A stretch of 64,000 bases of DNA from an uncultured bacterium. Its GTDB lineage: Bacteria > Hydrogenedentota > CAZGCA01. The position numbers and the translations under genes were made by a program. The notes below the pieces were generated by a model. The model was not told the DNA's origin. It did not search any database and saw only the letters and a list, made by a program, of their open reading frames with translations. This document shows positions 1,559 to 48,656 of the stretch, piece after piece. Each line of letters begins with the position of its first letter. Position 1 is the first letter of the stretch. The DNA is taken from positions 31,038 through 95,037 of the forward strand of contig CAZGCA010000005.1 of the NCBI GenBank assembly GCA_964524145.1, given 5' to 3'.

Positions 1559-3529
1559 CTATTCGTCGACCTCTATGACGTCAAGCGGGACCGTGCCCTC
1601 TTTGACCTGCAGCACGACTGCATGGCGTCCGCGTTTCAGGTTACGTCGAGAGAAGACCGGAGTTGATGGTTCGGGTTGTGGTGAACCGAACTCCACGGTT
1701 GCTGTTTTGAGCTCGTCTACAAAGACGTCGGCCGCGCCGTACTCCGGTCGCTTCGGTGCCCATAGCGAGAAGCCCGAACCGTCGAAATTCCACTTGCCCC
1801 GCGCGTTCGGTTGCTCCGATACGGCGCCGATACCGTATCGAAATCCCGGGTCTTCAACTGCACGCCACGTCCCGCCGGCCTCACCGGCCCCAAGTATCGC
1901 TTCCGTATGAAGGTAGCGCCACCTGCCTTTTCCGCGAGTCCCGTCCACAACAAAGCGTTTCATGGTGAGATGGCTGTCTTTCCCCACCAGAATGCCTATG
2001 CCCTCTTCGACCGATTCGATAGCGCCTCTCCAGACAGTGTCGCCGTTCAGAGACAACGCCGTCTCGCCGTTGGCCTTCCGAGAAATCGCCACCCTGCATG
2101 TCCGGTTCAAGTGAAGAGGACCGGAAGCTGAGACAGCGCGTGCACCGGAGTCGTCAATTCGGGCAACACGCCATTCTGGGTCGGCCAGTTCGAGCGCACA
2201 ATATCGCGTGAGCGACAGCGGATGAAGCGTCGAGTTTGAAGTTGGCTGGTTCGGTCCCAGCGGCGCATGGTATGCCCACAGAAGCGATGCCTGGCCTCGC
2301 AGGTCCAGCTCGGCCTCAAGATTGAACGCCGAGTACACCCCTTTGAGAAGTGTCAGACTCTGTCCCTGGTGCCCGCTCAGTGTGAACCCGCGCCGGCGGG
2401 TTGGCTTGTCCCACGAACGCGATGCCAGATTGATCGTTCCGAAACCATCCTTGTCGCGCGACGGGAACATCACACGGAGCATATTGTCTGCGCCGACGAA
2501 TCCCGAAATGGTCTGGCCCCAGATGCCGTAATGTTCGTGCTCGACAGGTTCCGCGTGCCAGAATGAGCCGTACTGGAACAGTTCCCACGCTTTCGGGTTC
2601 ATCGCCTCCTCGGTCCTCACGCGGAACACAGCCTGGAAGTTGCGGTTCAGTGCGACGGAAGTGGCAGGCGCGTAGATCCAGTCCCCGTGTTTGAACGCCG
2701 GGTAGAATTCCAGCAACGGCGGATGGAAGTACATCCCCTCCACGCAGCGCAGGAACGTGGGCTCCGAATACGGACCTTCCGGTTTGCCGGACGCCATCCC
2801 GACCAGCGCCCAGCCGTGGTGAGCGCCCGAATCCATCATGGCCAGCACCAGCCAGTCTCGTTCGCGCCGGATCAACGTCGCTGCATAGGCCCGGCGGTAC
2901 TTGTCCCGATAGAACGGGTGCTCGCTTATCCGATAAATCGGCTCGGCCGTGCGGACAAACGGACCTTCCGGACGATCCGACCACGCGTAGGCTATACCGT
3001 TGTCTGCTCCGTTCGCCGGGTTCACGATCGTTTTCCAGTCGGAGTTCGCGGAAGCCCAGTCGTAAACCAGATGATACCGCCCGTCCGCGTAAACGACCGA
3101 TACGTCCGGCGCATGACCGACAGCGACCTCGTCGCCGTCGAATCGGAACGGTTCGTCGGGAAAGATCGGGCCGAGGTGCTGCCAGGACCTGCCTCGGTCC
3201 CGCGAGCGGTACGCGGTGCAGTCCATACGTTTGCCCTTGCCCATCGCGTACCCTTCCGCGTACAGACCGACATAGACGTACCAGTTGCCGCTGCAGGGGT
3301 CCTCGAACAGGAACCCGTTTACGGGCCATTCAAACGGTGGCGCACCGCGATGGATGGGGTTGCCCGGTGCCCGCTCGAACGCGTCGAACGACGGGTCCCC
3401 GTATACAGGATGCCGAAGCCAGCTATCCACCTGTGCCGCGGCCGCGAAATCAATTGCATCCACTTGACCCGCAGCTCCTGCAATACCGACGACCACAATC
3501 AGGGATATGTACCATCTCATCGCCACCAC
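1559..3529 (-). CDS. Secreted glycoside-hydrolase-like beta-propeller protein (GH43/GH32/GH117 clan suspected) with a C-terminal beta-sandwich
   Basis: N-terminal signal peptide (MRWYISLIVVVGIAGAAG). FEDPCSGNWYVYVGLY and WSDRPEGPF blades resemble the first and later blades of 5-bladed propeller glycosidases. Family assignment is unverified. Confidence 0.4.
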   Translation of the reverse strand: MVAMRWYISLIVVVGIAGAAGQVDAIDFAAAAQVDSWLRHPVYGDPSFDAFERAPGNPIHRGAPPFEWPVNGFLFEDPCSGNWYVYVGLYAEGYAMGKGKRMDCTAYRSRDRGRSWQHLGPIFPDEPFRFDGDEVAVGHAPDVSVVYADGRYHLVYDWASANSDWKTIVNPANGADNGIAYAWSDRPEGPFVRTAEPIYRISEHPFYRDKYRRAYAATLIRRERDWLVLAMMDSGAHHGWALVGMASGKPEGPYSEPTFLRCVEGMYFHPPLLEFYPAFKHGDWIYAPATSVALNRNFQAVFRVRTEEAMNPKAWELFQYGSFWHAEPVEHEHYGIWGQTISGFVGADNMLRVMFPSRDKDGFGTINLASRSWDKPTRRRGFTLSGHQGQSLTLLKGVYSAFNLEAELDLRGQASLLWAYHAPLGPNQPTSNSTLHPLSLTRYCALELADPEWRVARIDDSGARAVSASGPLHLNRTCRVAISRKANGETALSLNGDTVWRGAIESVEEGIGILVGKDSHLTMKRFVVDGTRGKGRWRYLHTEAILGAGEAGGTWRAVEDPGFRYGIGAVSEQPNARGKWNFDGSGFSLWAPKRPEYGAADVFVDELKTATVEFGSPQPEPSTPVFSRRNLKRGRHAVVLQVKEGTVPLDVIEVDE

Positions 3530-8102: not shown

Positions 8103-8762
8103 ATGCTACCATTTAGTGCGAAAACTTCGTGCAGCACCCGGCATTTTGGCACTAGTACGGACGACGACCGACAGAGCGTGGAAGCGAAGGCTACGAGCGA
8201 GAAGGGGAGCAAAGCTCCAGACAACAAGACCGGACGACCGAGCGTGCTCAACCGCGAATCGGTAGTGTTCGTGGTGGTGTTTCTGGTGACGGTTGTTGCC
8301 GTATTTGTCCTTTACGAGTACATAAAGGACACCAAGCCGATGGCGCGCTACGTGGAGCTGATCTCGGGGCACGTGGGTACGGTTCTGCGTCTGAGCGGCA
8401 GAGACACGGTTGTCCGCGGCGATCGCGTCACGATCAAGCTGGACAAGAGTGATGCGAGCAAAAGGGCCCGGAGGTGGACGATGCAGGTTATCCCCGACTG
8501 CGGCGCTATTCCGTCGATGGCCATCTTTTGCGCCGCCGTGCTTGCGTTCCCTACCGGGCTGAGACGCAAGCTGCTCGGGGTGCTTATCGGGGTACCGTTG
8601 TTGTATGTCGTCAACGTCGGCCGACTTGTGTGCCTGGGCCTGGTCGGTCTGTATTATCGGAGCGGATTCCATTTTGCCCACGTCTACGTGTGGCAGTCGA
8701 TCTTCATCGTGTTTGTGGTCGTGATATGGATGGTGTGGGTCGATAAGGTAGCGAAAGTGTGA
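8103..8762 (+). CDS. Exosortase/archaeosortase-family protein (compact; true start uncertain, possibly near 8342)
   Basis: ISGHVGTVLRLSGRDTVVRGDRVTI ... VIPDCGAIPSMAIF resembles the exosortase G...Gn.i.l...V.eaCSG active-site Cys region. The downstream VVNVGRLV matches the conserved N-x-x-R motif. It is polytopic and hydrophobic. Confidence 0.5.
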   Translation: MLPFSAKTSCSTRHFGTSTDDDRQSVEAKATSEKGSKAPDNKTGRPSVLNRESVVFVVVFLVTVVAVFVLYEYIKDTKPMARYVELISGHVGTVLRLSGRDTVVRGDRVTIKLDKSDASKRARRWTMQVIPDCGAIPSMAIFCAAVLAFPTGLRRKLLGVLIGVPLLYVVNVGRLVCLGLVGLYYRSGFHFAHVYVWQSIFIVFVVVIWMVWVDKVAKV

Positions 8763-14185: not shown

Positions 14186-17100
14186 CTAAATAAGCGCCAA
14201 CGCCGCGTTTATTACCAACTGCACATCCAAGGCGTTTACTTGTCCGTCTCCATTCACGTCCGCGTCAAAATTGCCGATGTCTATTCCGAGTGCGGCGTTG
14301 ATCACAAGTTGTACGTCTAATGCATCTATGTGATCGTCACCGTTAATGTTGCAGTTGAAAACCGTTACGGGGTCGCTGGGGCCGGCCGCAGGGGCGAGGT
14401 TACCGGCGGCGTCTGAGGCTGTGTCAGCCCCGAGCGATATACTGAGCGTACCTCCACCGGAGATATTCGAGATAGTGACTGTACGCGTTGTATTGCCGGC
14501 GCCGGACACCGTAACAACACCATTGGCCGTATCGGTTCTGTTCAGGACAACATCGTTCCAAGTCAACACCACGTTATCGGCTTCGCCGTATGTAACCGTA
14601 TATGTAATTTCCCGGGTAGCCGTAAACTCCGCCGAAGGTTCTCCGATCGAAACCGTGGGTGGCACAGTATCGAGTACGATCGTGTCGCTGAAGCTGGTTG
14701 ACGTGTTCCCAAGCGTGTCGCGGAATTGGACATACACCGTTTTCTCGCCGTCACCGGCAGTGAGTGTCCAAGGCGTGGACGCTGAGAAATCCTCCCATTC
14801 GTCCCACGTGGTTCCATCGCTGCTCAACCGCATGTCGGCTACACCTATCCCATTTGTGCCGTCTGAGGCGGTCAGGCCGACTGTAACATCGAGAGTGTTC
14901 GTATAAGTCGCACCACTATTGATAACGATAGTCCCCGTTGGCCCTGTCGTGTCCAGGTTGATGCCATCGGTTACGGTTTGGGAAATGTTGTCAGCGGCAT
15001 CCCGGAACTGGGCGTAGACGATCTTCGGGCCATCACCTGCCGAAAGGGTCCATGTTTTGCCGGTACCGACGGCTTCCCACGAACTCCAGTTTGTGCCGTC
15101 ATTGCTAAACCGCATATCTGACACGCCGGAACCGGAACCGTCGCCCGAGCTCAAGGTCAACGTCACGTCCGACGAGCTGGTCCAGTCCGCCCCGCCGTCA
15201 ATCGTTACCGTGCCGGTAGGCGCGGTGGTATCCAACGAGATCGTGTCTGTCGCGGTGGCCGACACGTTGCCGGCGTTGTCTTTGAACTGTGCGTAAACTG
15301 TCTTCCCTTCATCAAACGCGTAAAGGGTCCACGTTTTGCTGGTTGCGACTGTTTCCCACGAACTCCAATCTGAGCCATTGTTGCTGAACCGCATCTGGGC
15401 TACGCCGGACCCATTGCCATCGCTATACGCCAACGCGAGCGTAACGTTTCTGCTATCGGTCCACGCGGCTCCCCCGTTAATTGTTATGCCACCGGTAGGC
15501 GGCACGGAGTCCACCGTTACTGAAGCGCCCGTCGCCGCATTGGCGTAACCCCCGGCCGTATCCCAGGCTGTTCCTGCCGCAACCTCGATATGCAGACGCC
15601 CTTCACCCCAACAGTTGGTCAGCGTTACCGTGCGCGTCGTGTTGCCGTCACCCGACAACTCGACCGTCGCGCCCGCGGCATTTTCCGGAGCGGAAACCAG
15701 GGTAACATCGGCCGCTTCGAGCAAGATATCCGTCGCCCCCTCGTAAGTAAGGATATATTCCACCGGCCCGGAGGCCGTGGCTGTCGGCACGGGTCCCGTA
15801 ATCGTCAGTACCGGCGGCGTGTTGTCCACCGTGAACGTGCCGCTTGGCCCGATTGCCGGAGCGGTTGTGCTGCCCGCGTATGTCGCCGTGCCCGCAGCAA
15901 TAGTAATGCCGAGCGTCCCGTCTCCCGTTATGTTGCTTATGACGATCTTCTTCGCCAACGGTTCAGCCGTATCCTCGACCGTTACCGTCCCGTTGGCCGT
16001 GCCGGTCTTGTTCAAAGTGACGTTTCCAGCCGCCAGATTGACGCTGGTCGCGCCCGGATAGGTCACAGTGTAGTATACCGGCCCCGATTTCGTAATGGTC
16101 TCCGAAGGCGCGCTCAAGCCCACCATCTCGTCACCCACAACTATCGTATAGTCGCCCTGAGCCGACAGGTTGCCGTGTACGTCCTGCGAGACGATATGGA
16201 AATAGTAGACCCCGTCCGGTTTCCCGAACTCATTCCACGTGTAAAGGTCCGTGCTGTCCGGCGATACCGCCGTCACAGTTGTCGATACGGTCTGATCGAA
16301 AGCAAGATGGAACTTGGGCGTACCCGTGGCGAACGAGTCCGGATCGGTCCAGGCAAACCCTATGTTGCTGGTGTTTGATGTCGGGATAACCTGCACGTGC
16401 GGCGGCCGTGCCTCGCGGATGCGCACCGCAAAATGTGTCGGCGCCGTCAGGTGGCCGCAATCGTCCGTCGCAATCAGGTGCAGGAAATACCGGCCCAGCG
16501 AAAGATTGGTCACCTCGAGCGTCGCCTCCGCCGTGCTCGTGCTGCCCGCCGTCGGCACGCTATAGGGGCTGCGATCCCACACGTAGTAGTAGGGCGCGCC
16601 GGAAGCCGGTGCGGGCGTCCACGCCAACGCCACGTCCCGGGCGGCATACGCCGTGTGCGGGTCCACGTGCGTGCTCGATGTCACCACCGGCCCCGGTGTC
16701 GCGCCGACCGTCACCTTGCGTTCCGCCACAGGAGACAGGTAGCCCCACGTGTCCTCGCTCTGGACCAGAAACCAATGGACGCCGGATTCCACACAACCGA
16801 ACGTTACGCTCGTTTCCGTGGTTGTCGTCGAGGGCGTAGCGCCTTCGCTCGTCCCCCAGGCGTACCAGTACTTCACCACGTCCGGCACACCGCCGTCGGT
16901 CCACTCGAACGTTACCTCGACCCCGGAACCGCGCGTGTTCTCGTCAGGATGTGTCGGAGAAGACACTACCGGCGGTGCGTCGGTGACAATGAACTTATAA
17001 TGCGCCGGCGCGCTCAAAGTCCCCGCCGCGTCCATGGCGACCACGTGGAACCAGTAGGTGCCGGGGGCAAGGCCCGGCGTTATCGTAATGAGTGCAGATT

Positions 17101-19117
17101 CTGAGAACGTGTCTCTCGCGTCCGGAATCGTGTCGGGTACACTATCCTGGACGTAGTAGTAACCGGGGATAGTCACCTCTTGGGGTAACACGAAGCCGGA
17201 TCTCCAGACGTCGTTAGTCGAAGTGGGACCCGAAGAGCCGCATGTCCCTCCGCCTAACACCCATAACATGTTCTGAAACGCCACCGCTCCATGCCCCCAG
17301 CGGTACGACCACGGTGCATAAGCCCTTTCTTGCGTCCATGTTATGCCGTCTGGGCTGCTCCAGATATCTCTCATGGCAACATCGCTACAGTATTGTGGGT
17401 GGCTCCAATCTCCGTGTCCGCCCAGTACCCATAGTTTCTCCTGGAACGCCACCACCCTATGGCTCCCGCGCCCAGACCAGCCTGCGTCAGCCGTTTCTAG
17501 CGTCCATGTCCTGCCGTCCGGGCTGCTCCAGACGTCGTTCTTATAGCTACCTCCCAACACCCACAACTTGTTCTGGAGCACCACCGCCTGATGGCCCGCA
17601 CGCCTCCCGCAGCCTGCATCAGCCGTTTCCAGCGTCCATGTCCTGCCGTCCGGGCTGCTCCAGACCTCCTTCTGGGCTCCGTAGTACTCGGGTCCTCCCG
17701 GATTTCCAGCTCCGCCTAACACCCACATCTTGTTCTGGAACACAACCGCCTGATGGCCAGCGCGCCCCGGCCATTCTGCGTCAGCCGTTTCCAGTGTCCA
17801 TGTCCTGCCGTCCGGGCTACTCCAGACGTCGTTCCGATAGCCACCACCTCCCAGCACCCACACCTTATTGTGGAACACAACCGCCGGAGCCGCCGCCCAT
17901 TCTGCGTCAGCCGTTTCCAGTGTCCATGTCCTGCCGTCCGGGCTACCCCAGACGTCGTTCCGATAGCCATCACCTCCCAGCACCCACAATTTGTTCTGGA
18001 ACACCACTACCTCGTGCGCTCGCCGAGGCGACCAGCCTGCGACCGCCGTTTCCATCGTCCAACTTTTCCCGTTAGCCGCGGTTCCGATCTGTGCCTGAAA
18101 CACCTTGTTTGACGAGGGGGTGTGCGTGTCGGGGTGGGATGGGCTGTAGACATATAACCCATCGAGGTACACATTAACGTGGTGGTTCCTCTGCGACCCG
18201 TCGATGATCTGGCGGTCTGTCCCGATGACGGCGATATGGAAGTACCACGCGCCGGTGTTTGTCGCCGTATACTGGACGGTCTTCGGGTCGGCCGCGTCGC
18301 GGAAAGTTCCGCCGGTATCCACGACGGTATACCCGCTCTGATCCATGACCCATAGATAGCCATAGAGGTCTGCCCCTGCCATATAGTTTGTATAATCCAC
18401 GGTCACATCCGGACTGCAATACCATTTAGTGCTGTCCGGATGACTGGGCGAATACAGCGGCAGACGGTCCTGGAACCAGTCCGGGACGCCATCGCCGTCA
18501 GCGTCTTCAAACCCGTCGGAGACACCGTTGCCGTTCAGGTCCTGGTAGGCGTCGGGGATGCCGTTACCGTCGATGTCCTCGAAGCCGTCTGGTAGACCGT
18601 TGCCGTCGAAATCCTGGGCCGCGTCGGTGGTACCGTCCTGATCGAGATCGAATATATCGTCCGGTGTGCCGTCATCGTCTACGTCCAACCATTCCAGTCT
18701 GGTGTCTATCTCGAACAGGTCTGATTCGGGCACGCTGCTGCCGCCCGCAGCCGGAACGCTTTCCAGAAGCACCGCCGCTTCAGCGATCTGGCGTTCCGGG
18801 TGATCGTTGTAAACATGCCAGACGACCATGTTGTCCTGGCCCGGCTGGACATCATCGCCTATGTCGCCATAGACAGTACTGGCGGTAAGGTCGTACGAGA
18901 GTGCGCCATCGTCGCTGGCCGACAGACTCAGTGTCACCGGCCCTGACGGCGTGACGGACAGATCATAAAAGATGCGTACGAAACTACCGTATTGTTCTGC
19001 TTCAACATAGGTAATCTCGACCGTTTGCGCATGGACGGAACTTGTCCTCCCCAACACGGCAAATACCATAACCGACAGGACTAAACCACGCGCTAAGAAA
19101 CGACATGCCGATTTCAT
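14186..19117 (-). CDS. Giant secreted surface protein (about 1640 aa) with TSP3-like Ca-binding repeats, a Kelch beta-propeller, Ig-like modules and a C-terminal double dockerin
   Basis: Signal peptide MKSACRFLARGLVLSVMVFAVLGRTSSVHA. D-x-D-x-D-G repeats (DVDDDGTPDD...DQDGTTD...DGNGLPDG...). Six or more Kelch-like units (VVFQNKLWVLGG...RNDVWSSPDGRTWT). Three ~85-aa near-identical Ig-like modules. It ends in two dockerin type-I segments (DVNGDGQVNALDVQLVINAALALI). Confidence 0.75.
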   Translation of the reverse strand: MKSACRFLARGLVLSVMVFAVLGRTSSVHAQTVEITYVEAEQYGSFVRIFYDLSVTPSGPVTLSLSASDDGALSYDLTASTVYGDIGDDVQPGQDNMVVWHVYNDHPERQIAEAAVLLESVPAAGGSSVPESDLFEIDTRLEWLDVDDDGTPDDIFDLDQDGTTDAAQDFDGNGLPDGFEDIDGNGIPDAYQDLNGNGVSDGFEDADGDGVPDWFQDRLPLYSPSHPDSTKWYCSPDVTVDYTNYMAGADLYGYLWVMDQSGYTVVDTGGTFRDAADPKTVQYTATNTGAWYFHIAVIGTDRQIIDGSQRNHHVNVYLDGLYVYSPSHPDTHTPSSNKVFQAQIGTAANGKSWTMETAVAGWSPRRAHEVVVFQNKLWVLGGDGYRNDVWGSPDGRTWTLETADAEWAAAPAVVFHNKVWVLGGGGYRNDVWSSPDGRTWTLETADAEWPGRAGHQAVVFQNKMWVLGGAGNPGGPEYYGAQKEVWSSPDGRTWTLETADAGCGRRAGHQAVVLQNKLWVLGGSYKNDVWSSPDGRTWTLETADAGWSGRGSHRVVAFQEKLWVLGGHGDWSHPQYCSDVAMRDIWSSPDGITWTQERAYAPWSYRWGHGAVAFQNMLWVLGGGTCGSSGPTSTNDVWRSGFVLPQEVTIPGYYYVQDSVPDTIPDARDTFSESALITITPGLAPGTYWFHVVAMDAAGTLSAPAHYKFIVTDAPPVVSSPTHPDENTRGSGVEVTFEWTDGGVPDVVKYWYAWGTSEGATPSTTTTETSVTFGCVESGVHWFLVQSEDTWGYLSPVAERKVTVGATPGPVVTSSTHVDPHTAYAARDVALAWTPAPASGAPYYYVWDRSPYSVPTAGSTSTAEATLEVTNLSLGRYFLHLIATDDCGHLTAPTHFAVRIREARPPHVQVIPTSNTSNIGFAWTDPDSFATGTPKFHLAFDQTVSTTVTAVSPDSTDLYTWNEFGKPDGVYYFHIVSQDVHGNLSAQGDYTIVVGDEMVGLSAPSETITKSGPVYYTVTYPGATSVNLAAGNVTLNKTGTANGTVTVEDTAEPLAKKIVISNITGDGTLGITIAAGTATYAGSTTAPAIGPSGTFTVDNTPPVLTITGPVPTATASGPVEYILTYEGATDILLEAADVTLVSAPENAAGATVELSGDGNTTRTVTLTNCWGEGRLHIEVAAGTAWDTAGGYANAATGASVTVDSVPPTGGITINGGAAWTDSRNVTLALAYSDGNGSGVAQMRFSNNGSDWSSWETVATSKTWTLYAFDEGKTVYAQFKDNAGNVSATATDTISLDTTAPTGTVTIDGGADWTSSSDVTLTLSSGDGSGSGVSDMRFSNDGTNWSSWEAVGTGKTWTLSAGDGPKIVYAQFRDAADNISQTVTDGINLDTTGPTGTIVINSGATYTNTLDVTVGLTASDGTNGIGVADMRLSSDGTTWDEWEDFSASTPWTLTAGDGEKTVYVQFRDTLGNTSTSFSDTIVLDTVPPTVSIGEPSAEFTATREITYTVTYGEADNVVLTWNDVVLNRTDTANGVVTVSGAGNTTRTVTISNISGGGTLSISLGADTASDAAGNLAPAAGPSDPVTVFNCNINGDDHIDALDVQLVINAALGIDIGNFDADVNGDGQVNALDVQLVINAALALI
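17250..18070. repeat. Tandem near-identical 126-135-bp coding repeats (Kelch units) inside the giant surface protein gene
   Basis: Repeated DNA blocks such as cagccgtttccagtgtccatgtcctgccgtccgggctactccagacgtcgttccgatagcc recur with a few mismatches. The antisense ORF 17242..18075 also shows a periodic peptide. Confidence 0.8.
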
Positions 19118-19340
19118 AGAATATCCCTCCCGATAACCTGATTGAAGCACCTTCTCATATCCAAGCAATTACATTACTGTACTCGACTATAAACCAAAGC
19201 ACCTCCTACGTCAAGCATCGCGCCGGTAGTCCCGAGACATGGGTGATGTCCAGGTGCCCACAAACTGGCGGCGGGGGGAAGATAGGTGTTATAATTCAAT
19301 AAAGAGACCGAAACGCTTAGAAAACCAGGGGGTGATAACG

Positions 19341-20501
19341 ATGATATTCGGAAAACAAGCCGGTAAGACCCGGCGGGCAGTGGCTTGTGTGGCTGGGCTG
19401 TGTTTGATCGCAGCGCTGTTCACCGTTTCGGCCGCTGCACAACCCGGCAAGATGCGTATGCCCGCTGGCCGGGACAGCGGCGACCAGAACGCGTATAGCA
19501 CGCAACAGCAAGGGGTTACGAACGTCTCTGCGGGTTCGCGGGGTTCGTTCGTGCCCGGGGTCCAGCGTGATGCCGCACGTGCGGGAGCACCGCACACAAA
19601 ATACCGGGTGCCGCCTCAGGCACCCCCGGCTCCTGTGCGTCCAAACCCGATTCCCCCACCTCAGCCGCAGTCCCGAACCGTAATACCGGCGGTTCCCGGC
19701 TCGACCCCAACCGTCATACCGAGAGGGACGCCACCCACGATCGAGCCACGGGGTCACGGCAGCGTACCGAACAGGCCTCGCTCCGGGCCGGGTTATCATC
19801 CGAGGCGTCCGTATCGGCGCGGGGATGCGTACAACCCGTTCAGGCTTGGCGGATGGCGTGGCTGGAACTGGAACACGTACTACCACTCGCCCTTGAACCA
19901 AGGGTACACCTACTACTATCTCGGCGGCGTCCCCATGTACTACGGTTCTCCGGTCGTCGTCTACCCTGATTCCTGGTATCGCAGGGAAACGCCCGGCACG
20001 ACGGTCATTCCTCGGGTGGATCCGGTCAGACCTTCCAGCTTTGCCTCGTTTCACGATTATCTTGTCATTGAAGGAGACAAGCTGATCGCTGCCGGCAACT
20101 ACACAGAGGCGGCTGAGAAATACCGAACCGCGACATCTCAACAGCCTGAGAACGCCCGGACAAAAGTCGCCCTGGCGAACGCGCTGTTTGCTTCAGGCAA
20201 CTACGAGTTTGCCACGGAGGTGCTGCGCAAGTCGCTTCTCTGTCTCGCCGACAACGAACCGTTGCCGAACCCCGTGGGAACGTTTCCCACCAACGAAACC
20301 TTCGTGACGCTGATTCGCAAACTCGAGAGCCGCGCAGCGCTCCGTCCGGGAGATGGCTCGTTACGGTTGCTTCTCGGGTTCTACTACCTGTGCTCCGGCA
20401 GGACGGACTCCGCCATCAGCGAGCTACAGGAAACGGTGTCGCGCGACAAAGAGGACCTCGAGGCGGCATACCTGCTGCGCGTTGCACAACGGCACGGTTG
20501 A
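19341..20501 (+). CDS. Secreted Pro/Tyr/Gly-rich protein with C-terminal TPR repeats
   Basis: RBS aggggg lies 9 bp upstream of ATG 19341. Signal peptide MIFGKQAGKTRRAVACVAGLCLIAALFTVSAAAQ. The C-terminus has TPR-like helices. Confidence 0.5.
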   Translation: MIFGKQAGKTRRAVACVAGLCLIAALFTVSAAAQPGKMRMPAGRDSGDQNAYSTQQQGVTNVSAGSRGSFVPGVQRDAARAGAPHTKYRVPPQAPPAPVRPNPIPPPQPQSRTVIPAVPGSTPTVIPRGTPPTIEPRGHGSVPNRPRSGPGYHPRRPYRRGDAYNPFRLGGWRGWNWNTYYHSPLNQGYTYYYLGGVPMYYGSPVVVYPDSWYRRETPGTTVIPRVDPVRPSSFASFHDYLVIEGDKLIAAGNYTEAAEKYRTATSQQPENARTKVALANALFASGNYEFATEVLRKSLLCLADNEPLPNPVGTFPTNETFVTLIRKLESRAALRPGDGSLRLLLGFYYLCSGRTDSAISELQETVSRDKEDLEAAYLLRVAQRHG

Positions 20502-27318: not shown

Positions 27319-30207
27319 TTATGCAACCAGATCCAAATGGCCGTCGTGTGCAATCCGCGTCCGCAGATCCGCCGTTGCGACATCCAACGCGTCGTCGCGC
27401 AGGTCTTGAGCAGACGTGTCTTGGTCTGACGGCATGGTGTTGTTCCTTTCGTTGGCGAGCCAACTATCGAGCTGTTCGCCGCCGCTGGTGTCGACCGTTA
27501 CATGCACGAGCTCGACGCCTTCGTTTTGAAGCGCCTCGTGCAGCGCGGGCAATCCGCTTTCGAGCAAGCTGCGCGTTTCAGCGTAGCGCGCGACGATCTC
27601 GAGCTTGACCGCGTTGCCGTCCTGGGAGACTATCCGCAGGTTGACCTCGCCGAGAGTCGGCGGCTCGAGCCGGAGACGTATCTCCGATACATCCCTCGAC
27701 GTCATGAGCCGTGCGGACCGTACGATCTGGCCCGCGACCTTCTCAGCACGGTCTGCCGCGTAGGACTCCGGCAGAGAGAACTCCTGTTCTGCCTGCTGGA
27801 CGTTCGTCTCCTGTTGAGCGTGGTTCGAGACCGGCGTTGCAGTCTCGGCGAACGTCTCGTGGCGCGTGCCCTGTTCGGCGTTCGCGTCAGTGCCTGACGT
27901 TGCGGGCGCTTGCGCGCGTCCCTCAACACCGGCCGCCGCTGTCGCTTTCGCCACAGCTGTGCTGTCGGTTGCAGGAACGCTCTCTTGCGCCACGGGGCTT
28001 GCAGTCTCGCCCGCCTTCGCCACGTCGGCCAACGGTCCACCTTCCTTCAGGCTTTCACCCTGGCCGGAAGACTTCGTCTCGACGTTCGTGACGAACGCAG
28101 ATGCGTTGGCCCCGGCGTCAGGCGTGTAAGGTTCCACTGCCTCGGGAGCCTGGTTCGTGGTTCCGGTCGGCACAGCGTTAGGCGGCGAACCGCCTTGTTC
28201 CGCCTTGGGGTCGGCACCGGCACCGGCTTCAGCGGTTCCGATTTCGGCCGGAGCGACTTCTTGAGCCTGAACAAACGTGCGTACAGGCGCAGGTTCCGTT
28301 GTGGCGCTCTGCACACGCGGACTCGAAGCTGTGGCCGTGGCCGTCACCGTTTCCGGAACCGGAATCTCCTGCTCGTTGCCAACGAGAGGTCCTTCCTGCT
28401 CAGCCGGTTGAACCACTGAGCCGGGCGGCTGTGCTTCCTGAGCAGTCAGCTCAGGCTCTTGCAGCTTGCCACCCACAGCGTCCGGTTCGGTTTCAGGTGC
28501 CACATATTCGACTTCCGGCGGTACGGTCGATCCGACGATAGGCGCCGGAGACGGTTCTGCCGCACCAGCGGACTCGACGTCCTCTTCGAACTCGTTATCT
28601 CCGAAGAGTTGTTCGACCGAAGGCGCCGCCGGTGGTGTCGGCATCGCGCTCTCTTCCAGAGGCGAATCCGTCCCTTCGTCGACAACGCTAACGTTGGCCG
28701 GCATCTCGTCATCGACCACCGCCGCAACAACCGGTGCCACAGGTTCTTCTGTGGTCGTCAGGCCGGATGCAGCCAACACAATCGGCTCCATGGCCGCTTC
28801 CGGTGTCACCGCCGTTATCGGGCGCTCTGCATCGTCGATACTTGCGATGAGTGGCGCTGACGAAGGCTGATCAACCGGCTTGTCGGCCGGTTCCGGTTCG
28901 TCCAGTCCGGCAACCACGATCGGCTCCGGTCGTCCCACTGTAAGGCTTGGGGACGGGTTTGCGCCTACCGGTGCCGCTTCAGGGCCCTCGACTCCGTTTT
29001 GGGGAGCGGACTCATCCGCGATCTCCGGGGACACTGCAGGAACCGCAACGTCAACTGCATTCTCCGGTTCCTCGGTTCCCGTTACGACTGCCGGGTCGAC
29101 GTCAACAACCGCCGGTGCCGGCACGTTCTGCACCGTTTCCGCGGACGCCCCAGACGTTTCGACATCAGGGGTACGTTCCGCTTCATCGGTGCTCGCCGCA
29201 ACCGCAGGCATGACGTCAACAACGCTTACCGTCGGCGTGCCCTGTTCCAACCCCGTAATCGCTACGGTCTGTTCCGGAACAAGGCCGGTTGCCGGCGGCG
29301 GTTGTTGCTGCACCGCGTCCGCGAGTGCCTCGCGGGTTGGCGCGACGATATCGCCCTGCGGTTCCGCCATCTCGCCGGTCGACTGAGCCACTACCAGCAC
29401 GTCCGCATCTGGCTTCACCGTTGCGGTTTTACCGTCCGGCGCAGCCATCAGCACGGGTGCTGCGGCTGCCGAAGACGGTTCTCCGGCCGGTACTTCCGGG
29501 GCCGTTGCTGCAGGTACCGACGCGACGCCGGCACTCGGTTCAGCCGAGGATGCCACCACAATAGGATCCGGTGGCGGCACAACAGGTACACGTTCCGGAC
29601 CGGCCTGTTCGAAGCTGGCCGTCGCCGTTGTTTCCGGCGTTTCGCCGACCATCGTAACGGGCTGCTCGGCGGATTCGGTCTCAGATGGGACCGCCCCGTC
29701 TCGGGCAGCCACCGGTTGGAGCGGTCGCTCTCCGGACGCTACAGGAGACTGGTCTACCTGGGTGGATGGCACCGTCTGCGCATCCACAACCTCGAACACA
29801 TCCGGCTGGACTACAGCGTTTACAGCCGGTTGTGCTGACGAGACCACTGTCTCGGCTTCGGCATATGCAACGCCGGCTTGGCCTTCGGGCACTGCGGCCG
29901 TAGCGGATTCCGGATCAACCAGAACAGCTCCGGGCGCGTGGCCGGCGGAAACCGAAGCGGCCGTATCGCCTTCGGTTTGTCCGGGCTGTTGATTCGTCGG
30001 CGGGGACGGGTTTGTCGCAACCGTCGCGCCGACAACATCCTGCCCGGTCACGCCATCCAGCGTCCCTGCACCAGTTGCATACTGTGCAAGTATCTCGCTG
30101 AATAACGAGGCTGCGGCGTCTTCCGGCGGGCTCAAGGCAGCAAGGATGCTGCTCGCCGTCGGCAGAGACTCCACGGGCGGAATAATCACTTCACCCATAT
30201 ACATCAC
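27319..30207 (-). CDS. fliK: Flagellar hook-length control protein FliK, unusually long (962 aa) with a Pro/Ala/Glu/Thr-rich spacer
   Basis: C-terminal Flg_hook domain (IRLRLEPPTLGEVNLRIVSQDGNAVKLEIVARYAETRSLLESGLPALHEALQNEGVEL). A ~700-aa low-complexity region precedes it. Confidence 0.8.
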   Translation of the reverse strand: MMYMGEVIIPPVESLPTASSILAALSPPEDAAASLFSEILAQYATGAGTLDGVTGQDVVGATVATNPSPPTNQQPGQTEGDTAASVSAGHAPGAVLVDPESATAAVPEGQAGVAYAEAETVVSSAQPAVNAVVQPDVFEVVDAQTVPSTQVDQSPVASGERPLQPVAARDGAVPSETESAEQPVTMVGETPETTATASFEQAGPERVPVVPPPDPIVVASSAEPSAGVASVPAATAPEVPAGEPSSAAAAPVLMAAPDGKTATVKPDADVLVVAQSTGEMAEPQGDIVAPTREALADAVQQQPPPATGLVPEQTVAITGLEQGTPTVSVVDVMPAVAASTDEAERTPDVETSGASAETVQNVPAPAVVDVDPAVVTGTEEPENAVDVAVPAVSPEIADESAPQNGVEGPEAAPVGANPSPSLTVGRPEPIVVAGLDEPEPADKPVDQPSSAPLIASIDDAERPITAVTPEAAMEPIVLAASGLTTTEEPVAPVVAAVVDDEMPANVSVVDEGTDSPLEESAMPTPPAAPSVEQLFGDNEFEEDVESAGAAEPSPAPIVGSTVPPEVEYVAPETEPDAVGGKLQEPELTAQEAQPPGSVVQPAEQEGPLVGNEQEIPVPETVTATATASSPRVQSATTEPAPVRTFVQAQEVAPAEIGTAEAGAGADPKAEQGGSPPNAVPTGTTNQAPEAVEPYTPDAGANASAFVTNVETKSSGQGESLKEGGPLADVAKAGETASPVAQESVPATDSTAVAKATAAAGVEGRAQAPATSGTDANAEQGTRHETFAETATPVSNHAQQETNVQQAEQEFSLPESYAADRAEKVAGQIVRSARLMTSRDVSEIRLRLEPPTLGEVNLRIVSQDGNAVKLEIVARYAETRSLLESGLPALHEALQNEGVELVHVTVDTSGGEQLDSWLANERNNTMPSDQDTSAQDLRDDALDVATADLRTRIAHDGHLDLVA

Positions 30208-45922: not shown

Positions 45923-47032
45923 ATGGGAAATGTCGGATCAATATATGGAGGTGGGATCGTGAAAACATGTTCCGTCTTATTGATGGTAGTGGTTCTCTGC
46001 CTGTTCTCATCGCCCAGCAATGGGCAGAAACACCCTGTCAAAGTAATTTTCGATTCTGATATGGCGTTGGATAGTGAAGACATGAATGCCCTTTGTCTGC
46101 TGCATGCTTTTGCTGATGAAGGTGAAGCAGAAATAATTGCCACTGTGGCTTGTGGCTATGAAACAAACAGGGCATCAGGTGCCACAATCGATGCTATCAA
46201 TACATTTTACAGTCGGCCCGATATTCCAGTAGGAACCACAAAAATACATCCGGTTTTTCATAAGTATGCCATACCATTGGCACGCAGTTCGTGGACTACA
46301 GCTGTACGCGATAATTACCCGCACGATGTTCCGGATGACGATAAATGTCCGAGTGCTGTATCCGTCTACCGGGAAGCATTGTCAAAACAACCAGATAACA
46401 GCGTGGTGATTGTGACAACAGGTTGGCTTGTGAATCTCAGAGACCTGCTGGATTCAAAACCAGACGGCAGAAGCGACCTGAACGGGAGAGAACTGGTCAG
46501 CTCAAAAGTGAAAGAACTTTCAGTGATGGGCGGATCTTTTCCGCAGGGATGGGAATATAACTTTTGCTTTGCCGGTGTTGGACGATGCACAAAATATGTT
46601 CTGGAAAACTGGCCCGAGAACGTTCCGGTAATGATAAGCGGAGTCGAGATCGGCCTGAAAATAATATCCGGGAAAGTCTATAAGGATGAGCTCCCTGATT
46701 GCCCCCTGCGTAGAGGATTAGAAGACGCCTGGAATGCCCTCAGCGCAGGTAGACCGAGCTGGGACGAAACCGCAGTGATATATGCCGTAAGGGGATTGTC
46801 ATTCGAAGGCGACGAATATTGGAAAAAACAATCCCAGGGAAGCGTATTAGTTGATGACACAACAGGGGTAACCAAATGGGTGCCCACACCTGATAAGAAT
46901 CAATCATACCTCATAGAATCCATGAATCCTGATTTACTCGCCAGATTGATGGAAAGTCTTATTGTTAACAGTACCAAGAATGCATTAAAGATCACTGATC
47001 AACCTGATTCCGCAGATGAATCAGTTGACTAA
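45923..47032 (+). CDS. Secreted inosine-uridine nucleoside-hydrolase-like protein (putative) in a lower-GC segment
   Basis: Signal peptide. FDSDMALDSEDMNAL resembles the IU-NH DxDxxxDD Ca-binding motif. Local GC is visibly lower than in neighbouring genes. Confidence 0.4.
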   Translation: MGNVGSIYGGGIVKTCSVLLMVVVLCLFSSPSNGQKHPVKVIFDSDMALDSEDMNALCLLHAFADEGEAEIIATVACGYETNRASGATIDAINTFYSRPDIPVGTTKIHPVFHKYAIPLARSSWTTAVRDNYPHDVPDDDKCPSAVSVYREALSKQPDNSVVIVTTGWLVNLRDLLDSKPDGRSDLNGRELVSSKVKELSVMGGSFPQGWEYNFCFAGVGRCTKYVLENWPENVPVMISGVEIGLKIISGKVYKDELPDCPLRRGLEDAWNALSAGRPSWDETAVIYAVRGLSFEGDEYWKKQSQGSVLVDDTTGVTKWVPTPDKNQSYLIESMNPDLLARLMESLIVNSTKNALKITDQPDSADESVD

Positions 47033-47614
47033 GGCCATGACAGGATAGAGCCAAGGAAATGTGAGGTGATCAAGAAACTGGATTTCCCTAGTAACAGATG
47101 TATGTGCGACGGCAGCGCGAAACCTTATTTGCTGACGGTCGTCCTGTCGGGAAGGGAGACGTTAGGCGGCTAAGAGACGGGCGCACGAGATGGTCTGCAA
47201 TCAGCTCGACGTGGCTGAGCGTTGGTCAAAGCAGGGGGGTCTGGACGGTTTTGCGTTGTGCTGCGACTCCTGCTTTAATTCGGGTCCTTTCCTTGGTCCG
47301 GGTCTTTTTGGGGAGATGGTGAGGCCCTATTTGACGAGGTTATGTGTGGGTCTGCGAGACCTGGGGTTTTATGGTATCAAGCATTCTGACATATAAAGAT
47401 GCCTTACTGAGGATTGCCGATTGATGGGATGGGCAGTCGCTGGTAATGTCGACCGATGATTGCTATCATCACAATCGCGTGCTACGATCCACATTAATGT
47501 ACCCGCCAGGTGCTGGCGGGGGCGAGTCTGGTGTGACTGTCTTGCCGGATTCATACGCGCGGTTTTCACCGCGCAGCGGACGTCTGAAGGGAATGCCGAA
47601 CGGAGGGTAGATCC

Positions 47615-48643
47615 ATGAATGATGTCGTGGCCGGTCTTCTAATTGTCCTCGTTGCATCAGTATTGCAGGGAAGCTTCATGGTCCCCATGTCCTACGTGAA
47701 GAAGTGGCAATGGGAGAATTCGTGGGCGCTGTTCTCAGTTCTTGGGATGATCGGATTCAACTGGGTGTTGGCCATGGTCACGATTCCCTCGCTTCTCGAT
47801 GTATACCGCGCTGCCCCAGCTGCCGCTTTGGCAACGCCTGGCGTTTTTGGCCTGTGCTGGGGCGTAGGTGCGGTCTGTTTTGGTTTGGGGGTGGCGGCAG
47901 CCGGTTTTGCCTTGGGATATGCGATAATCATGGGTATTGTGCTTAGTTTCGGGGCCTTCATTCCCATGCTTGTTCAGCACCAGGAGGAGATTCTCTCGAC
48001 AAAGGGACTGTTGGTTCTCTCGAGCTTGGCCGTCATGATTGTTGGCATTGCGGTGTTTGGAACGGCGGGGACGCGCAAGGAGAAGGAGCAAAGCGAGAAG
48101 ACGGGGGCTATCACCAAGACTTCGACATTGTCGATCAAGGTGGCTCTTGCCATCTGCATCGTGGCGGGGCTGCTTTCTTGTCTGACCAACGTCGGCTTTT
48201 CCCTTAGCGAATCGCTTGTCGATCTCGCAAAAGAGCACGACGTCTCCGAGAACTGGGCCGGCAACTCGGTCTGGGCGATCCTATTCACTTTCGGGGCTCT
48301 CGTGAATCTGGGGTATTGTGGGTATCTGTTCACGAAGAACAAATCATTCAGTGCGTACCGAGAGCCGGGTCTGTTGAGGAATTTCCTTCTGGTGGCGTTC
48401 ATGTCGTTTATGTGGATTGGCAGTTTCGTTCTCTATGGCCTGGGCGCGGGCATGATGGGCGATTGGGGCAATGTGATAGGCTGGTCGGTGTTTATCGCGT
48501 TGTCGATAACCATCGCCAACCTGTGGGGCTTCGTCCAAGGAGAATGGGCCAACACGACAGCCAAGACACGCACGTTGATGGGTACCGGCCTTGGGATTCT
48601 GGTCGTAGCCATCGTCATCACCGCATTCAGTAACCTGAAATAG
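47615..48643 (+). CDS. RhaT-like sugar:H+ symporter (10-TM DMT-superfamily)
   Basis: 342 aa with 10 predicted TM helices. The N-terminus (VVAGLLIVLVASVLQGSFMVPMSYVKKW) resembles the L-rhamnose-proton symporter family. Confidence 0.45.
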   Translation: MNDVVAGLLIVLVASVLQGSFMVPMSYVKKWQWENSWALFSVLGMIGFNWVLAMVTIPSLLDVYRAAPAAALATPGVFGLCWGVGAVCFGLGVAAAGFALGYAIIMGIVLSFGAFIPMLVQHQEEILSTKGLLVLSSLAVMIVGIAVFGTAGTRKEKEQSEKTGAITKTSTLSIKVALAICIVAGLLSCLTNVGFSLSESLVDLAKEHDVSENWAGNSVWAILFTFGALVNLGYCGYLFTKNKSFSAYREPGLLRNFLLVAFMSFMWIGSFVLYGLGAGMMGDWGNVIGWSVFIALSITIANLWGFVQGEWANTTAKTRTLMGTGLGILVVAIVITAFSNLK

Positions 48644-48656
48644 CAGGGAGGAACCC

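What the first reader, a model, noticed from the sequence alone, without database searches (positions are those of the whole stretch)
14186..19117. 1640-aa multi-module surface protein: TSP3-like calcium repeats + Kelch propeller + triplicated Ig-like modules + C-terminal double dockerin
The architecture is unusual for a non-cellulolytic organism: a secreted protein ending in two type-I-dockerin calcium loops (DxNGDGxVNxxD). Dockerins imply a cohesin-bearing partner, that is, a cellulosome-like or cell-surface anchoring system. The remainder combines thrombospondin-type-3-like D-x-D-x-D-G repeats, a Kelch beta-propeller and three near-identical ~85-aa Ig-like modules. The gene is divergent from a secreted Pro/Tyr-rich TPR protein and next to the flagellar cluster.
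Basis: partly seen in the sequence, partly recalled or inferred. Interest (0 to 1): 0.55.

Follow-up and report, generated by a model that had tools for sequence, protein, structure and literature searches.

The report
Dockerin-tipped giant bacterial surface protein
This is a real gene for a 1,643-residue secreted, rod-shaped surface protein from an uncultured bacterium that ends in one ordinary non-cellulosomal dockerin, a well-known kind of module, so it is of modest interest rather than a sign of a cellulosome.

Summary
The ORF is real: window 14186-19117, minus strand, 1,643 aa, with its own promoter-like site, a Shine-Dalgarno and a Sec signal peptide. Orthologues are 75-76% identical and dN/dS is about 0.30.

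Confirmed:
- A six-bladed Kelch propeller.
- Three tandem ~94-aa beta-sandwich modules, but only 52-64% identical, not near-identical.
- A C-terminal Pfam Dockerin_1. This is one dockerin with its normal two calcium loops, not a double dockerin.

Not confirmed: TSP_3 by HMM. The region holds six contiguous 12-residue EF-hand-like Asp loops.

- Five divergent Fn3 modules, with the Kelch nested inside the second.
- Three 'A' beta-sandwich modules.
- An N-terminal beta-sandwich.

Across 12 family members the head is constant, the stalk length varies, and the C-terminus is swapped. The options are dockerin, cohesin-dockerin-cohesin, a TM tail, a T9SS CTD or an EF-hand-like pair. This fits a C-terminally anchored fibrillar adhesin.

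The dockerin subtype is common (1,662 clusters). It sits on non-cellulolytic proteins, and sometimes on small cohesin-dockerin proteins. No cohesin was found within about 76 kb. Non-cellulosomal dockerins are already well documented.

Verdict: new member of a known kind.

The parts
19186..19214 (-). sigma70-like promoter match TTGACG-17-TATAGT (10 of 12)
   Evidence: This is a consensus match only. It lies about 70 nt upstream of the ATG.
19126..19131 (-). Shine-Dalgarno GGGAGG, 8 nt before the ATG at 19117
   Evidence: upstream sequence read directly
19028..19117 (-). Sec signal peptide, aa 1-30 (MKSACRFLARGLVLSVMVFAVLGRTSSVHA|QT)
   Evidence: Sequence. Conserved in P0002 and P0003. The cleavage site is inferred from the AXA rule.
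18755..19027 (-). N-terminal beta-sandwich domain, aa 31-121 (profile match extends to aa 142). No Pfam or PDB sequence relative.
   Evidence: AF2 pLDDT 83-90, all strands. No Pfam hit. No PDB profile hit. Present once in 10 of 12 family members.
18470..18685 (-). Six contiguous 12-residue Asp-rich loops, D-x-[DN]-x-[DN]-G-x-x-D-x-x-[EQ], aa 145-216. Putative calcium-binding linker.
   Evidence: Regex. 36-nt tandem period. TSP_3 and TSP3_bac HMMs negative. AF2 confidence is low, pLDDT 46-71. Calcium binding is inferred from the motif only.
18167..18460 (-). Fn3-like module S1, aa 220-317
   Evidence: S-profile match 78.6 bits. The S profile hits Fn3 domains in the PDB, titin 3lpw E 7.6e-7.
18068..18151 (-). 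Fn3-like module S2, N-terminal part, aa 323-350 (before the inserted propeller)
   Evidence: An in-silico deletion of aa 351-649 restores a full-length S-profile match starting at aa 323.
17171..18067 (-). Six-bladed Kelch beta-propeller, aa 351-649, nested inside module S2
   Evidence: Pfam Kelch families above threshold. Six WVLGG blades. Foldseek E 6e-18 against LZTR1, KLHDC2/3 and YjhT. Two blades form a 126-nt tandem duplication, 93% identical, at 17767-18004.
16985..17170 (-). Fn3-like module S2, C-terminal part, aa 650-711
   Evidence: Truncated S-profile match, profile positions 33-93, 41.3 bits
16133..16975 (-). Fn3-like modules S3 (aa 715-805), S4 (809-902) and S5 (905-995)
   Evidence: S-profile 104, 111.7 and 87.1 bits. 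AF2 beta-sandwiches with pLDDT 85-93.
15509..16129 (-). 'A' beta-sandwich stalk modules A1 (aa 997-1100) and A2 (1101-1203)
   Evidence: 39-45% identical to each other and to A3. AF2 pLDDT about 90. No Pfam or PDB sequence relative.
14666..15508 (-). Triplicated 'B' Ig-like modules B1 (aa 1204-1297), B2 (1298-1390) and B3 (1391-1484)
   Evidence: 52-64% pairwise identity. Sub-threshold hits to Big_3_3, Big_13, Big_7 and the OmpL47-type barrel. AF2 beta-sandwiches. Copy number is 0-12 in family members.
14360..14665 (-). 'A' module A3, aa 1485-1586
14189..14359 (-). Single type-I dockerin, aa 1587-1643. Ca loops are at aa 1590-1601 (window 14315-14350) and aa 1620-1631 (window 14225-14260). Each loop is followed by the identical helix ALDVQLVINAAL.
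   Evidence: PF00404 38.1 bits against a cutoff of 22.9. PDB type-I dockerin hits. 1,662 related representative clusters. The AF2 fold is not confident, pLDDT 33-56.

Best explanation
The gene encodes a Sec-exported, rod-like cell-surface protein of the fibrillar-adhesin type. It comes from an uncultured diderm bacterium, tentatively Hydrogenedentota-like.

The protein has three functional regions.
- A conserved N-terminal 'head'. It consists of a beta-sandwich domain, six EF-hand-like Asp loops, and five Fn3-like modules, one of which has a six-bladed Kelch propeller inserted in it. This is the ligand-binding end.
- A stalk of A and B Ig-like modules. Their number varies between orthologues and sets the reach of the protein.
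- A C-terminal type-I dockerin. This is the attachment module. It most likely binds, in a calcium-dependent way, a cohesin on another surface protein of the same cell, so tethering the rod by its C-terminus.

Shown here: the gene is real, the protein has a signal peptide, the domain identities and order, the family-wide constant-head / variable-stalk / swappable-terminus pattern, and that this dockerin subtype co-occurs with cohesins elsewhere.

Inferred: surface location, adhesin function, calcium binding, and the cohesin partner in this organism.
For: - Real gene under purifying selection: dN/dS 0.30 against the gene for P0002. Orthologues are 75-76% identical.
- Signal peptide, SD and promoter-like site.
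- Diderm context: LptE and a BamD/YfiO-like protein in the window.
- Kelch propeller.
- Fn3-like S modules, with the Kelch nested inside one.
- All S, A and B modules are confident beta-sandwiches. The 929-residue C-terminal model best matches long Ig/Fn3 rods: titin/MyBP-C, the Aureispira grappling-hook protein GhpA, and contactin.
- Family pattern: N-domain x1 in 10 of the 12 members and S x5 in all 12, while A is x2-7 and B is x0-12.
- The C-terminus alternates between dockerin, cohesin-dockerin-cohesin, a GG+TM+basic tail, a T9SS-type CTD and a paired EF-hand-like module. All of these are terminal sorting or anchoring-type modules.
- The dockerin passes Pfam and has two canonical Ca loops with identical helices.
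- The same dockerin subtype occurs in cis with Pfam-verified cohesins, and in a dockerin / cohesin / cohesin-dockerin gene cluster.
- The definition of fibrillar adhesins as a stalk plus an adhesive domain is taken from PMC8286594 and PMC9210967.
Against: - No cohesin was found in the 64-kb window or in about 12 kb of extra flank. The rest of the genome was not searchable.
- The cohesins in family members P0012, P0033, P0048 and P0054 accompany a different dockerin subtype, so they are not evidence for a partner of this one.
- Only about 5% (7 of 147) of the closest dockerin carriers have a cohesin. According to the papers that cite Peer et al. 2009, the function of non-cellulosomal dockerins is unknown.
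- AF2 did not fold the dockerin confidently, pLDDT 33-56. The alignment held only two dockerin-bearing homologues.
- Kelch is not one of the recognised bacterial adhesive domains, and no ligand can be named.
- How the protein would cross the outer membrane is unknown.
Confidence: 0.55

Rival explanations
1. The dockerin has no cohesin partner here. It acts as a calcium-stabilised terminal module that binds something else, such as a polysaccharide, the outer membrane, or a non-cohesin protein. Alternatively it serves secretion or folding, and the protein is released or attached by another route.
For: - No cohesin in about 76 kb around the gene.
- 140 of the 147 closest carriers of this dockerin subtype lack a cohesin. 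No cohesin is among the 25 most frequent families in 57 carriers.
- The literature states that the function of non-cellulosomal dockerins is unknown (PMC5244752).
Against: - The same subtype is found fused to, and clustered with, verified cohesins.
- The two dockerin halves keep identical helices (ALDVQLVINAAL), as expected for a conserved protein-binding face.
- A partner encoded elsewhere in the genome is the norm for cohesin-dockerin systems (established knowledge).
Confidence: 0.25
2. The protein is a component of a cellulosome-like multi-enzyme complex for polysaccharide degradation, recruited to a scaffoldin through its dockerin.
For: - It has a type-I dockerin.
- The organism carries glycoside hydrolases nearby: GH28, a GH43-like protein, and GH172 in the flank.
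- Kelch propellers can bind sugars. YjhT/NanM is among the structural hits.
Against: - The protein has no catalytic domain or CBM.
- None of the neighbouring GH genes carries a dockerin.
- Carriers of this dockerin subtype are not enriched in glycoside hydrolases or CBMs.
- About 1,000 residues of Ig/Fn3 rod is not an enzyme-subunit architecture.
Confidence: 0.07
3. This is a surface-displayed enzyme. The Kelch propeller is catalytic, like sialic-acid mutarotase NanM or galactose oxidase, and the rest of the protein is a spacer.
For: - JGI names one family member (P0009) 'N-acetylneuraminic acid mutarotase'.
- YjhT (2uvk) is among the Foldseek matches.
Against: - That name is an automated label based on the Kelch repeats.
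- The best structural matches are protein-binding Kelch domains, LZTR1 and KLHDC2/3.
- Sequence identity to YjhT is about 17%, and active-site residues were not checked.
- The Kelch region is the fastest-diverging part between orthologues, dN 0.30 and dS 1.5. That is more typical of a binding surface than of an enzyme core.
Confidence: 0.08
4. This is a structural envelope or S-layer-like component, not an adhesin.
For: - It is a large secreted protein made of repeated beta-sandwich modules.
- The B modules give a weak OmpL47-type barrel hit.
Against: - The gene is single-copy and lies in non-conserved neighbourhoods.
- The architecture is an elongated head-stalk-anchor with variable stalk length, not a lattice-forming unit.
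Confidence: 0.05

Closest known systems
Non-cellulosomal dockerin-bearing surface proteins. Examples: Peer et al. 2009; the hypothesised 'planctosome' of Nemodlikiaceae, PMC6461901; dockerin/TSP3 giant proteins of Omnitrophota, PMC10066038 and bioRxiv 10.1101/2023.11.21.568195; ANME archaea, PMC5244752.
   Same: - A secreted multi-domain protein with a Pfam Dockerin_1 module and Asp-rich calcium-type repeats.
- No link to cellulose degradation.
- Attachment or adhesion is the proposed role.
- The dockerin subtype is shared with hundreds of such proteins.
   Different: - The combination of head modules here is specific to this family: an N-terminal beta-sandwich, five Fn3-like modules and a nested Kelch. 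It is not described in those papers.
- There is a single C-terminal dockerin rather than many dockerin repeats.
- No cohesin partner or peptidase cargo has been identified.
Clostridial type-I dockerins of cellulosomal enzymes (for example C. thermocellum Xyn10B/XynY 1OHZ and 2CCL, CelS 1DAQ)
   Same: - Two tandem segments, each with a 12-residue EF-hand-like loop (D/N at positions 1, 3, 5, 9 and D at 12) followed by a helix.
- Internal two-fold symmetry.
- Located at the C-terminus.
- These are the best PDB sequence matches.
   Different: - The carrier is not an enzyme.
- The Ser-Thr recognition pair is replaced by Ala-Leu. This is read directly from the sequence, using remembered knowledge of the clostridial motif.
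- The organism is a diderm.
- No scaffoldin is known.
Fibrillar adhesins and 'periscope' proteins (PMC8286594, PMC9210967, PMC9704523); the Aureispira grappling-hook protein GhpA (PDB 9flp, 9fly, 9flw)
   Same: - A long stalk of tandem Ig/Fn3-like domains that projects a distal head.
- The number of stalk repeats varies between orthologues.
- Foldseek matches to GhpA segments, E 3e-20.
   Different: - The anchor is a dockerin, not LPXTG, T1SS/RTX, T5SS or T9SS.
- The head contains a Kelch propeller rather than a catalogued adhesive domain.
- There is no experimental evidence of adhesion.
Thrombospondin type-3 repeats (Pfam TSP_3 PF02412; bacterial TSP3_bac PF18884)
   Same: Contiguous Asp-rich D-x-D-x-D-G-x-x-D-type 12-residue loops, likely to chelate calcium.
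   Different: - No HMM match, even at E<=10.
- No Cys-containing spacers.
- A strict 12-residue period ending in E or Q, closer to bare EF-hand loops.

Membership tests
Dockerin type I (Pfam PF00404) | Match to the curated HMM above the gathering score | tested here: met
   38.1 bits against a cutoff of 22.9, aa 1591-1638, profile positions 4-55 of 57
Dockerin type I (Pfam PF00404) | Two tandem ~22-residue segments, each a 12-residue EF-hand-like Ca loop plus a helix | tested here: met
   NINGDDHIDALD and DVNGDGQVNALD, 30 residues apart, each followed by ALDVQLVINAAL. PDB type-I dockerins align to both halves.
Dockerin type I (Pfam PF00404) | Predicted dockerin fold (three helices, two Ca sites) | tested here: inconclusive
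   AF2 pLDDT is 33-56 for aa 1587-1643. Only 2 of the 11 homologue rows in the alignment carry a dockerin.
Dockerin type I (Pfam PF00404) | Calcium-dependent binding to a cohesin | not testable with these tools
   Needs biochemistry. Indirect evidence: the same dockerin subtype is fused to or clustered with Pfam-verified cohesins in other organisms.
Cellulosome / cohesin-dockerin system | A cohesin-bearing partner (scaffoldin or anchor) in the same genome | tested here: inconclusive
   None in the window ORFs, in the six-frame scan, or in about 12 kb of flanks.
Cellulosome / cohesin-dockerin system | The dockerin is carried by carbohydrate-active enzymes or CBM-containing subunits | tested here: not met
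   No GH, PL, CE or CBM family in the protein. Nearby GH28 and GH43-like genes lack dockerins. The carriers of this subtype sampled are not GH-rich.
Kelch beta-propeller | Kelch repeat HMMs above threshold and a closed propeller fold | tested here: met
   PF24681 59.5 against 50; PF13964 52.2 against 25.3; PF01344 49.1 against 20.1. Six blades. Foldseek E 6e-18, target TM 0.73.
Thrombospondin type 3 repeat (PF02412 / PF18884) | Match to the curated HMM | tested here: not met
   No TSP_3 or TSP3_bac hit at E<=1 on the whole protein, or at E<=10 on aa 140-222 alone.
Thrombospondin type 3 repeat (PF02412 / PF18884) | Repeated D-x-D-x-D-G-x-x-D calcium-binding motif | tested here: met
   Six contiguous 12-residue matches at aa 145-216. 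This is motif-level resemblance only.
Fibronectin type III | Sequence-profile relationship to solved Fn3 domains and a beta-sandwich fold | tested here: met
   The S-module profile hits titin Fn3 3lpw (E 7.6e-7), fibronectin, the ChiA1 Fn3 and NagJ. AF2 gives beta-sandwiches with pLDDT 85-93. The Pfam fn3 HMM itself does not match single modules.
Bacterial Ig-like domains (Big_3_3 / Big_13 / OmpL47-type barrel) for the B modules | Match to a curated HMM above threshold | tested here: inconclusive
   Only sub-threshold hits: Big_3_3 19.9 against 27; OmpL47 barrel 26.1 against 40; Big_13 13.3 against 27. The predicted fold is a confident beta-sandwich.
Fibrillar adhesin (as defined in PMC8286594) | A stalk of tandem repeated domains | tested here: met
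   Six A/B modules plus five Fn3-like modules. Rod-like structural matches.
Fibrillar adhesin (as defined in PMC8286594) | A recognised adhesive domain and demonstrated binding | not testable with these tools
   The head (N-domain plus Kelch) has no catalogued adhesive family, and no ligand is known.

The most novel reading that the evidence does not exclude
An uncultured diderm lineage, possibly Hydrogenedentota-like, uses a genuine cohesin-dockerin network to display adhesins on its surface, not to organise enzymes. One conserved adhesive head (beta-sandwich, Ca loops, Fn3 modules and a nested Kelch) is plugged onto interchangeable anchors: a dockerin, self-linking cohesin-dockerin-cohesin cassettes, TM or sorting tails, a T9SS CTD, and a so far undescribed Cys-containing EF-hand-pair module. 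On this reading, cohesin-dockerin pairing is one of several exchangeable surface-attachment solutions for the same protein family.
Probability: 0.3. Interest if true: 0.5.

Novelty: new member of a known kind. Interest (0 to 1): 0.3.

Why it matters
If the dockerin really tethers this rod to a cohesin on the cell, it would add a concrete, testable case to an open question: what do the very numerous non-cellulosomal dockerins do? The case would be a non-enzymatic passenger displayed on a Gram-negative-type surface.

The family also offers a natural experiment. The same head sits on five different C-terminal modules, and that could be used to work out the function of the uncharacterised ones.

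As it stands, the finding is an ordinary example of a widespread class. It does not indicate a cellulosome.

Tried and rejected
1. TSP_3 membership: rejected. There is no HMM hit, even on the isolated segment at E<=10.
2. 'Double dockerin': rejected. The two loops are the two halves of one dockerin.
3. Functional link to the flagellar cluster or the TPR neighbour: rejected. Orthologues at 75%, 55% and 45% identity sit in unrelated neighbourhoods.
4. Cohesin near the gene: none in the window ORFs, in the six-frame scan, or in the flanks reached through longer contigs.
6. A word-indexed search with the dockerin alone returned only five short fragments. The exhaustive representative search was informative instead.
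7. Taxonomy. The genome collection has no full-length orthologue, and the best hit is a Hydrogenedentes MAG over the Kelch region only. Cluster look-ups gave no organism names. FliI relatives with names are mostly Hydrogenedentes/-ota but mixed, so placement stays tentative.
8. Profiles of the N-domain, A and B modules found no significant PDB sequence relatives.
9. The alternative C-termini of family members match no NCBIfam sorting-signal model. Pfam gives only sub-threshold EF-hand hits.
10. AF2 did not give a confident dockerin fold.
11. Peer et al. 2009 (PMC3035643) is not held in the library. It is cited only through papers that cite it.
12. Two edge-gene look-ups failed, probably because the start codons are called differently.
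Full report

A single ORF runs from 19168 to 14186 on the minus strand. GGGAGG lies 8 nt upstream, and a typical Sec signal peptide follows (MKSACRFLARGLVLSVMVFAVLGRTSSVHA|QT). A sigma70-like TTGACG-17-TATAGT lies about 70 nt further upstream. The product is 1,643 aa. Exactly this protein is called on a JGI metagenome contig (sample 3300028837), and other window proteins are identical to products on record from an NCBI MAG contig of 101,749 bp. Orthologues of 75-76% identity exist (P0002, P0003). A codon-level comparison with the gene for P0002 gives dN/dS = 0.30. This is an expressed-type gene under purifying selection, not a chance ORF.

**2.

Kelch is confirmed.
- Three Pfam Kelch families exceed their gathering scores.
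- There are six WVLGG blades.
- The AlphaFold2 model of aa 31-725 (mean pLDDT 80.3) matches solved Kelch propellers at Foldseek E 6e-18 and target TM 0.73. The matches include LZTR1, KLHDC2/3 and the bacterial YjhT.

The dockerin is confirmed.
- PF00404 scores 38.1 bits against a cutoff of 22.9.
- The last 59 residues hit solved clostridial type-I dockerins best.
- Both 12-residue loops, NINGDDHIDALD and DVNGDGQVNALD, carry D/N at positions 1, 3, 5, 9 and D at 12. Each is followed by the identical helix ALDVQLVINAAL.
- These two loops are the two halves of one dockerin, so 'double dockerin' is a misnomer.
- AF2 did not fold this tail confidently (pLDDT 33-56). I attribute that to an alignment in which only two homologues carry a dockerin, but it remains a gap.

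The triplicated modules are confirmed with corrections. There are three tandem ~94-aa modules at 52-64% identity. They are predicted as confident beta-sandwiches, with only sub-threshold hits to Big_3_3, Big_13 and the OmpL47-type barrel.

TSP3 is not confirmed as a family member. No TSP_3 or TSP3_bac hit appears, even at E<=10 on the isolated segment. What exists are six contiguous 12-residue loops, D-x-[DN]-x-[DN]-G-x-x-D-x-x-[EQ], at aa 145-216, with a 36-nt DNA period. These are essentially bare EF-hand-type loops. Calcium binding is an inference from the motif.

**3.

About 60% of the protein has no Pfam family. Self-comparison and profiles resolve it.
- An N-terminal beta-sandwich (aa 31-121; pLDDT 83-90).
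- Five 'S' modules. Their profile hits fibronectin type III domains in the PDB (titin 3lpw, E 7.6e-7).
- Three 'A' beta-sandwich modules (39-45% identical).

The Kelch propeller is nested inside the second Fn3-like module. In the native sequence the S profile matches aa 650-711 only from profile position 33 onward (41.3 bits). After deleting aa 351-649 in silico, the match becomes full length (positions 5-94, 57.7 bits) and starts at aa 323.

The 929-residue C-terminal model (mean pLDDT 83.9) best matches long Ig/Fn3 rods: titin/MyBP-C, the Aureispira grappling-hook protein GhpA, and contactin.

**4. The family and what it says about function**

Twelve full-length relatives (34-76% identity) share the same head. 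All twelve have exactly five S modules with the nested Kelch, and ten of them carry one N-domain (P0012 and P0031 gave no N-domain match). The stalk varies, with A x2-7 and B x0-12. The C-terminus is swapped between several modules:
- dockerin (P0001-3);
- a Gly-Gly + TM helix + basic tail (P0004-6, P0031, P0053);
- a paired D-x-N-G-D...LSELLRVIQFFN...Cys module (P0007-9, P0011, P0012);
- a T9SS-type CTD (P0042);
- cohesin-dockerin-cohesin cassettes (P0012, P0033, P0048, P0054).

A constant distal head, a length-variable stalk and an exchangeable terminal sorting or anchoring module is the logic of fibrillar adhesins and 'periscope' proteins (PMC8286594, PMC9210967, PMC9704523). It implies that the dockerin is this orthologue's attachment device.

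The gene neighbourhood carries no functional signal. The 75% orthologue lies among GH130, SDR and LemA genes. P0012 lies beside an FGE-sulfatase gene and defence genes. P0004 lies beside PhoD and a sulfatase gene. The flagellar and TPR adjacency is therefore incidental.

**5. The cohesin question**

No cohesin, and no second dockerin, is present in any of the following:
- the window's ORFs;
- its six-frame translation, searched with the family's own cohesins;
- about 12 kb of additional flank reached through longer contigs.

An exhaustive search with the dockerin alone shows that the subtype is common. There are 1,662 representative clusters at E<=1e-3 and 111 at <=1e-10, with up to 77% identity, usually at the extreme C-terminus. 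In 57 carriers scanned, the accompanying domains are CarboxypepD_reg, SdrD_B, SBBP/BNR/NHL propellers, PASTA, beta-helix, CotH, PKD, BACON, LRR, FGE-sulfatase and peptidase C13. No glycoside hydrolase, CBM or cohesin is among the 25 most frequent families.

A targeted look did find that seven of the 147 closest carriers pass Pfam Cohesin. They include small signal peptide-cohesin-dockerin proteins. One NCBI genome has three consecutive genes encoding a dockerin protein, a cohesin protein and a cohesin-dockerin protein. So this dockerin subtype does take part in cohesin-dockerin systems in some organisms. Whether it does in this one is open.

**6. Organism**

The window encodes LptE and a BamD/YfiO-like protein, so the organism is a diderm. 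It also encodes a flagellar regulon, an exosortase-like protein, a PF07638-type ECF sigma factor, an N-methyl prepilin-type protein, GH28, a GH43-like protein, RhaT and a sugar-binding protein.

Named FliI relatives at 61-66% identity are mostly Candidatus Hydrogenedentes/-ota, mixed with a few other phyla. The closest hits (74%) are unnamed. The best genome-collection hit to the target is a Hydrogenedentes MAG, over the Kelch region only. Placement is tentative. 'Non-cellulolytic' is an assumption, because the organism clearly uses polysaccharides.

**7. Comparison with what is known, and verdict**

[quoted passage not shown] Their function outside the cellulosome is described as unknown (Peer et al. 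2009, cited in PMC5244752 and PMC10066038). Similar combinations have been described:
- dockerin, cohesin, TSP3 repeats and P-domains in the hypothesised planctomycete 'planctosome' (PMC6461901);
- dockerin/TSP3 giant proteins of Omnitrophota, proposed to mediate attachment.

The present protein is therefore a new member of a known kind: a non-cellulosomal dockerin-bearing, fibrillar-adhesin-like surface protein. Its specific head architecture, the nested Kelch and the anchor swapping in its family are new details of moderate interest. They are not surprising in kind. I put 0.55 on the head-stalk-anchor adhesin model with dockerin-mediated tethering. Within that, the extracellular rod part is much more secure than the cohesin step. 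I put 0.25 on a dockerin without a cohesin partner, and small probabilities on the enzyme-complex, enzyme and structural-layer readings.

Noticed in passing
window 16985-18151 (-), with the propeller at 17171-18067: The six-bladed Kelch propeller is a domain insertion inside the second Fn3-like module. Deleting aa 351-649 in silico restores a full-length Fn3-profile match. The arrangement is conserved in all 12 family members.
   Followed up: yes
window 17767-18004 (-): Two adjacent Kelch blades form a 126-nt tandem duplication that is 93% identical at the DNA level, indicating recent blade duplication or gene conversion inside the propeller.
   Followed up: partly
window 14189-19117 compared with L032:5006-10606: Divergence from the 75% orthologue is mosaic. 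The Kelch region has dS about 1.5 and dN 0.30. Most of the gene has dS 0.3-0.4. Module A3 has dS 0.04, with dN/dS about 1 on few sites. This suggests recombination or cassette exchange within the gene.
   Followed up: partly
C-termini of P0007, P0008, P0009, P0011, P0012 (homologues): There is an undescribed tandem C-terminal module: D-Q-[ND]-G-D-x-x-I-S-L-S-E-L-L-R-V-I-Q-F-[FY]-N, followed by conserved Cys and EDG[FY]xPG. Pfam gives only sub-threshold EF-hand hits and NCBIfam gives none. It looks like a dockerin-like EF-hand pair.
   Followed up: partly
C-termini of P0004, P0005, P0006, P0031, P0053; window 8103-8762 (+): Some family members end in a Gly-Gly + hydrophobic helix + basic tail resembling a sorting signal, but no NCBIfam CTERM model matches. 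The window encodes a short exosortase EpsH-like protein (24.2 bits against a cutoff of 25.7).
   Followed up: partly
L043:1164-4918 (NCBI GCA_034004565.1) and L042:1836-4096: L043 has three consecutive genes encoding a dockerin protein, a cohesin protein and a small cohesin-dockerin protein, with the same dockerin subtype as the target. L042 has two adjacent TIG-domain dockerin proteins, one of them with a cohesin. Both look like small non-cellulosomal cohesin-dockerin gene clusters.
   Followed up: partly
P0012 aa 1808-2181, P0054 aa 1015-1374, P0033 aa 1880-2244, P0048 aa 1131-1494: A recurrent cohesin A - dockerin - cohesin B cassette sits at the C-terminal end of Kelch-bearing surface proteins. 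It could allow self-linking networks. Its dockerin is of a different subtype from the target's.
   Followed up: partly
window 1559-3529 (-), 47615-49583 (+), 58611-61428 (+): Sugar-utilisation genes are present: a GH43-like protein, RhaT, a PfkB kinase, GH28 and a periplasmic sugar-binding protein. GH172 lies just outside the window in L039.
   Followed up: partly
window 45923-47032 (+) and 46001-48000: A nucleoside-hydrolase-like ORF has an unusually low GC3 (0.43, against about 0.7 elsewhere). It lies in a local GC dip (0.50, against about 0.58). This may be horizontally acquired DNA.
   Followed up: no
window 27319-30207 (-): There is an unusually long FliK-like hook-length protein of 962 aa. 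Only its C-terminal ~80 residues match Flg_hook. It lies in the window's highest-GC stretch (0.644).
   Followed up: no
window 19341-20501 (+): The divergent neighbour is a secreted protein with a Pro/Tyr-rich N-terminal half and C-terminal TPR repeats. It is not found next to the orthologues of the target examined (P0002, P0004, P0012).
   Followed up: partly
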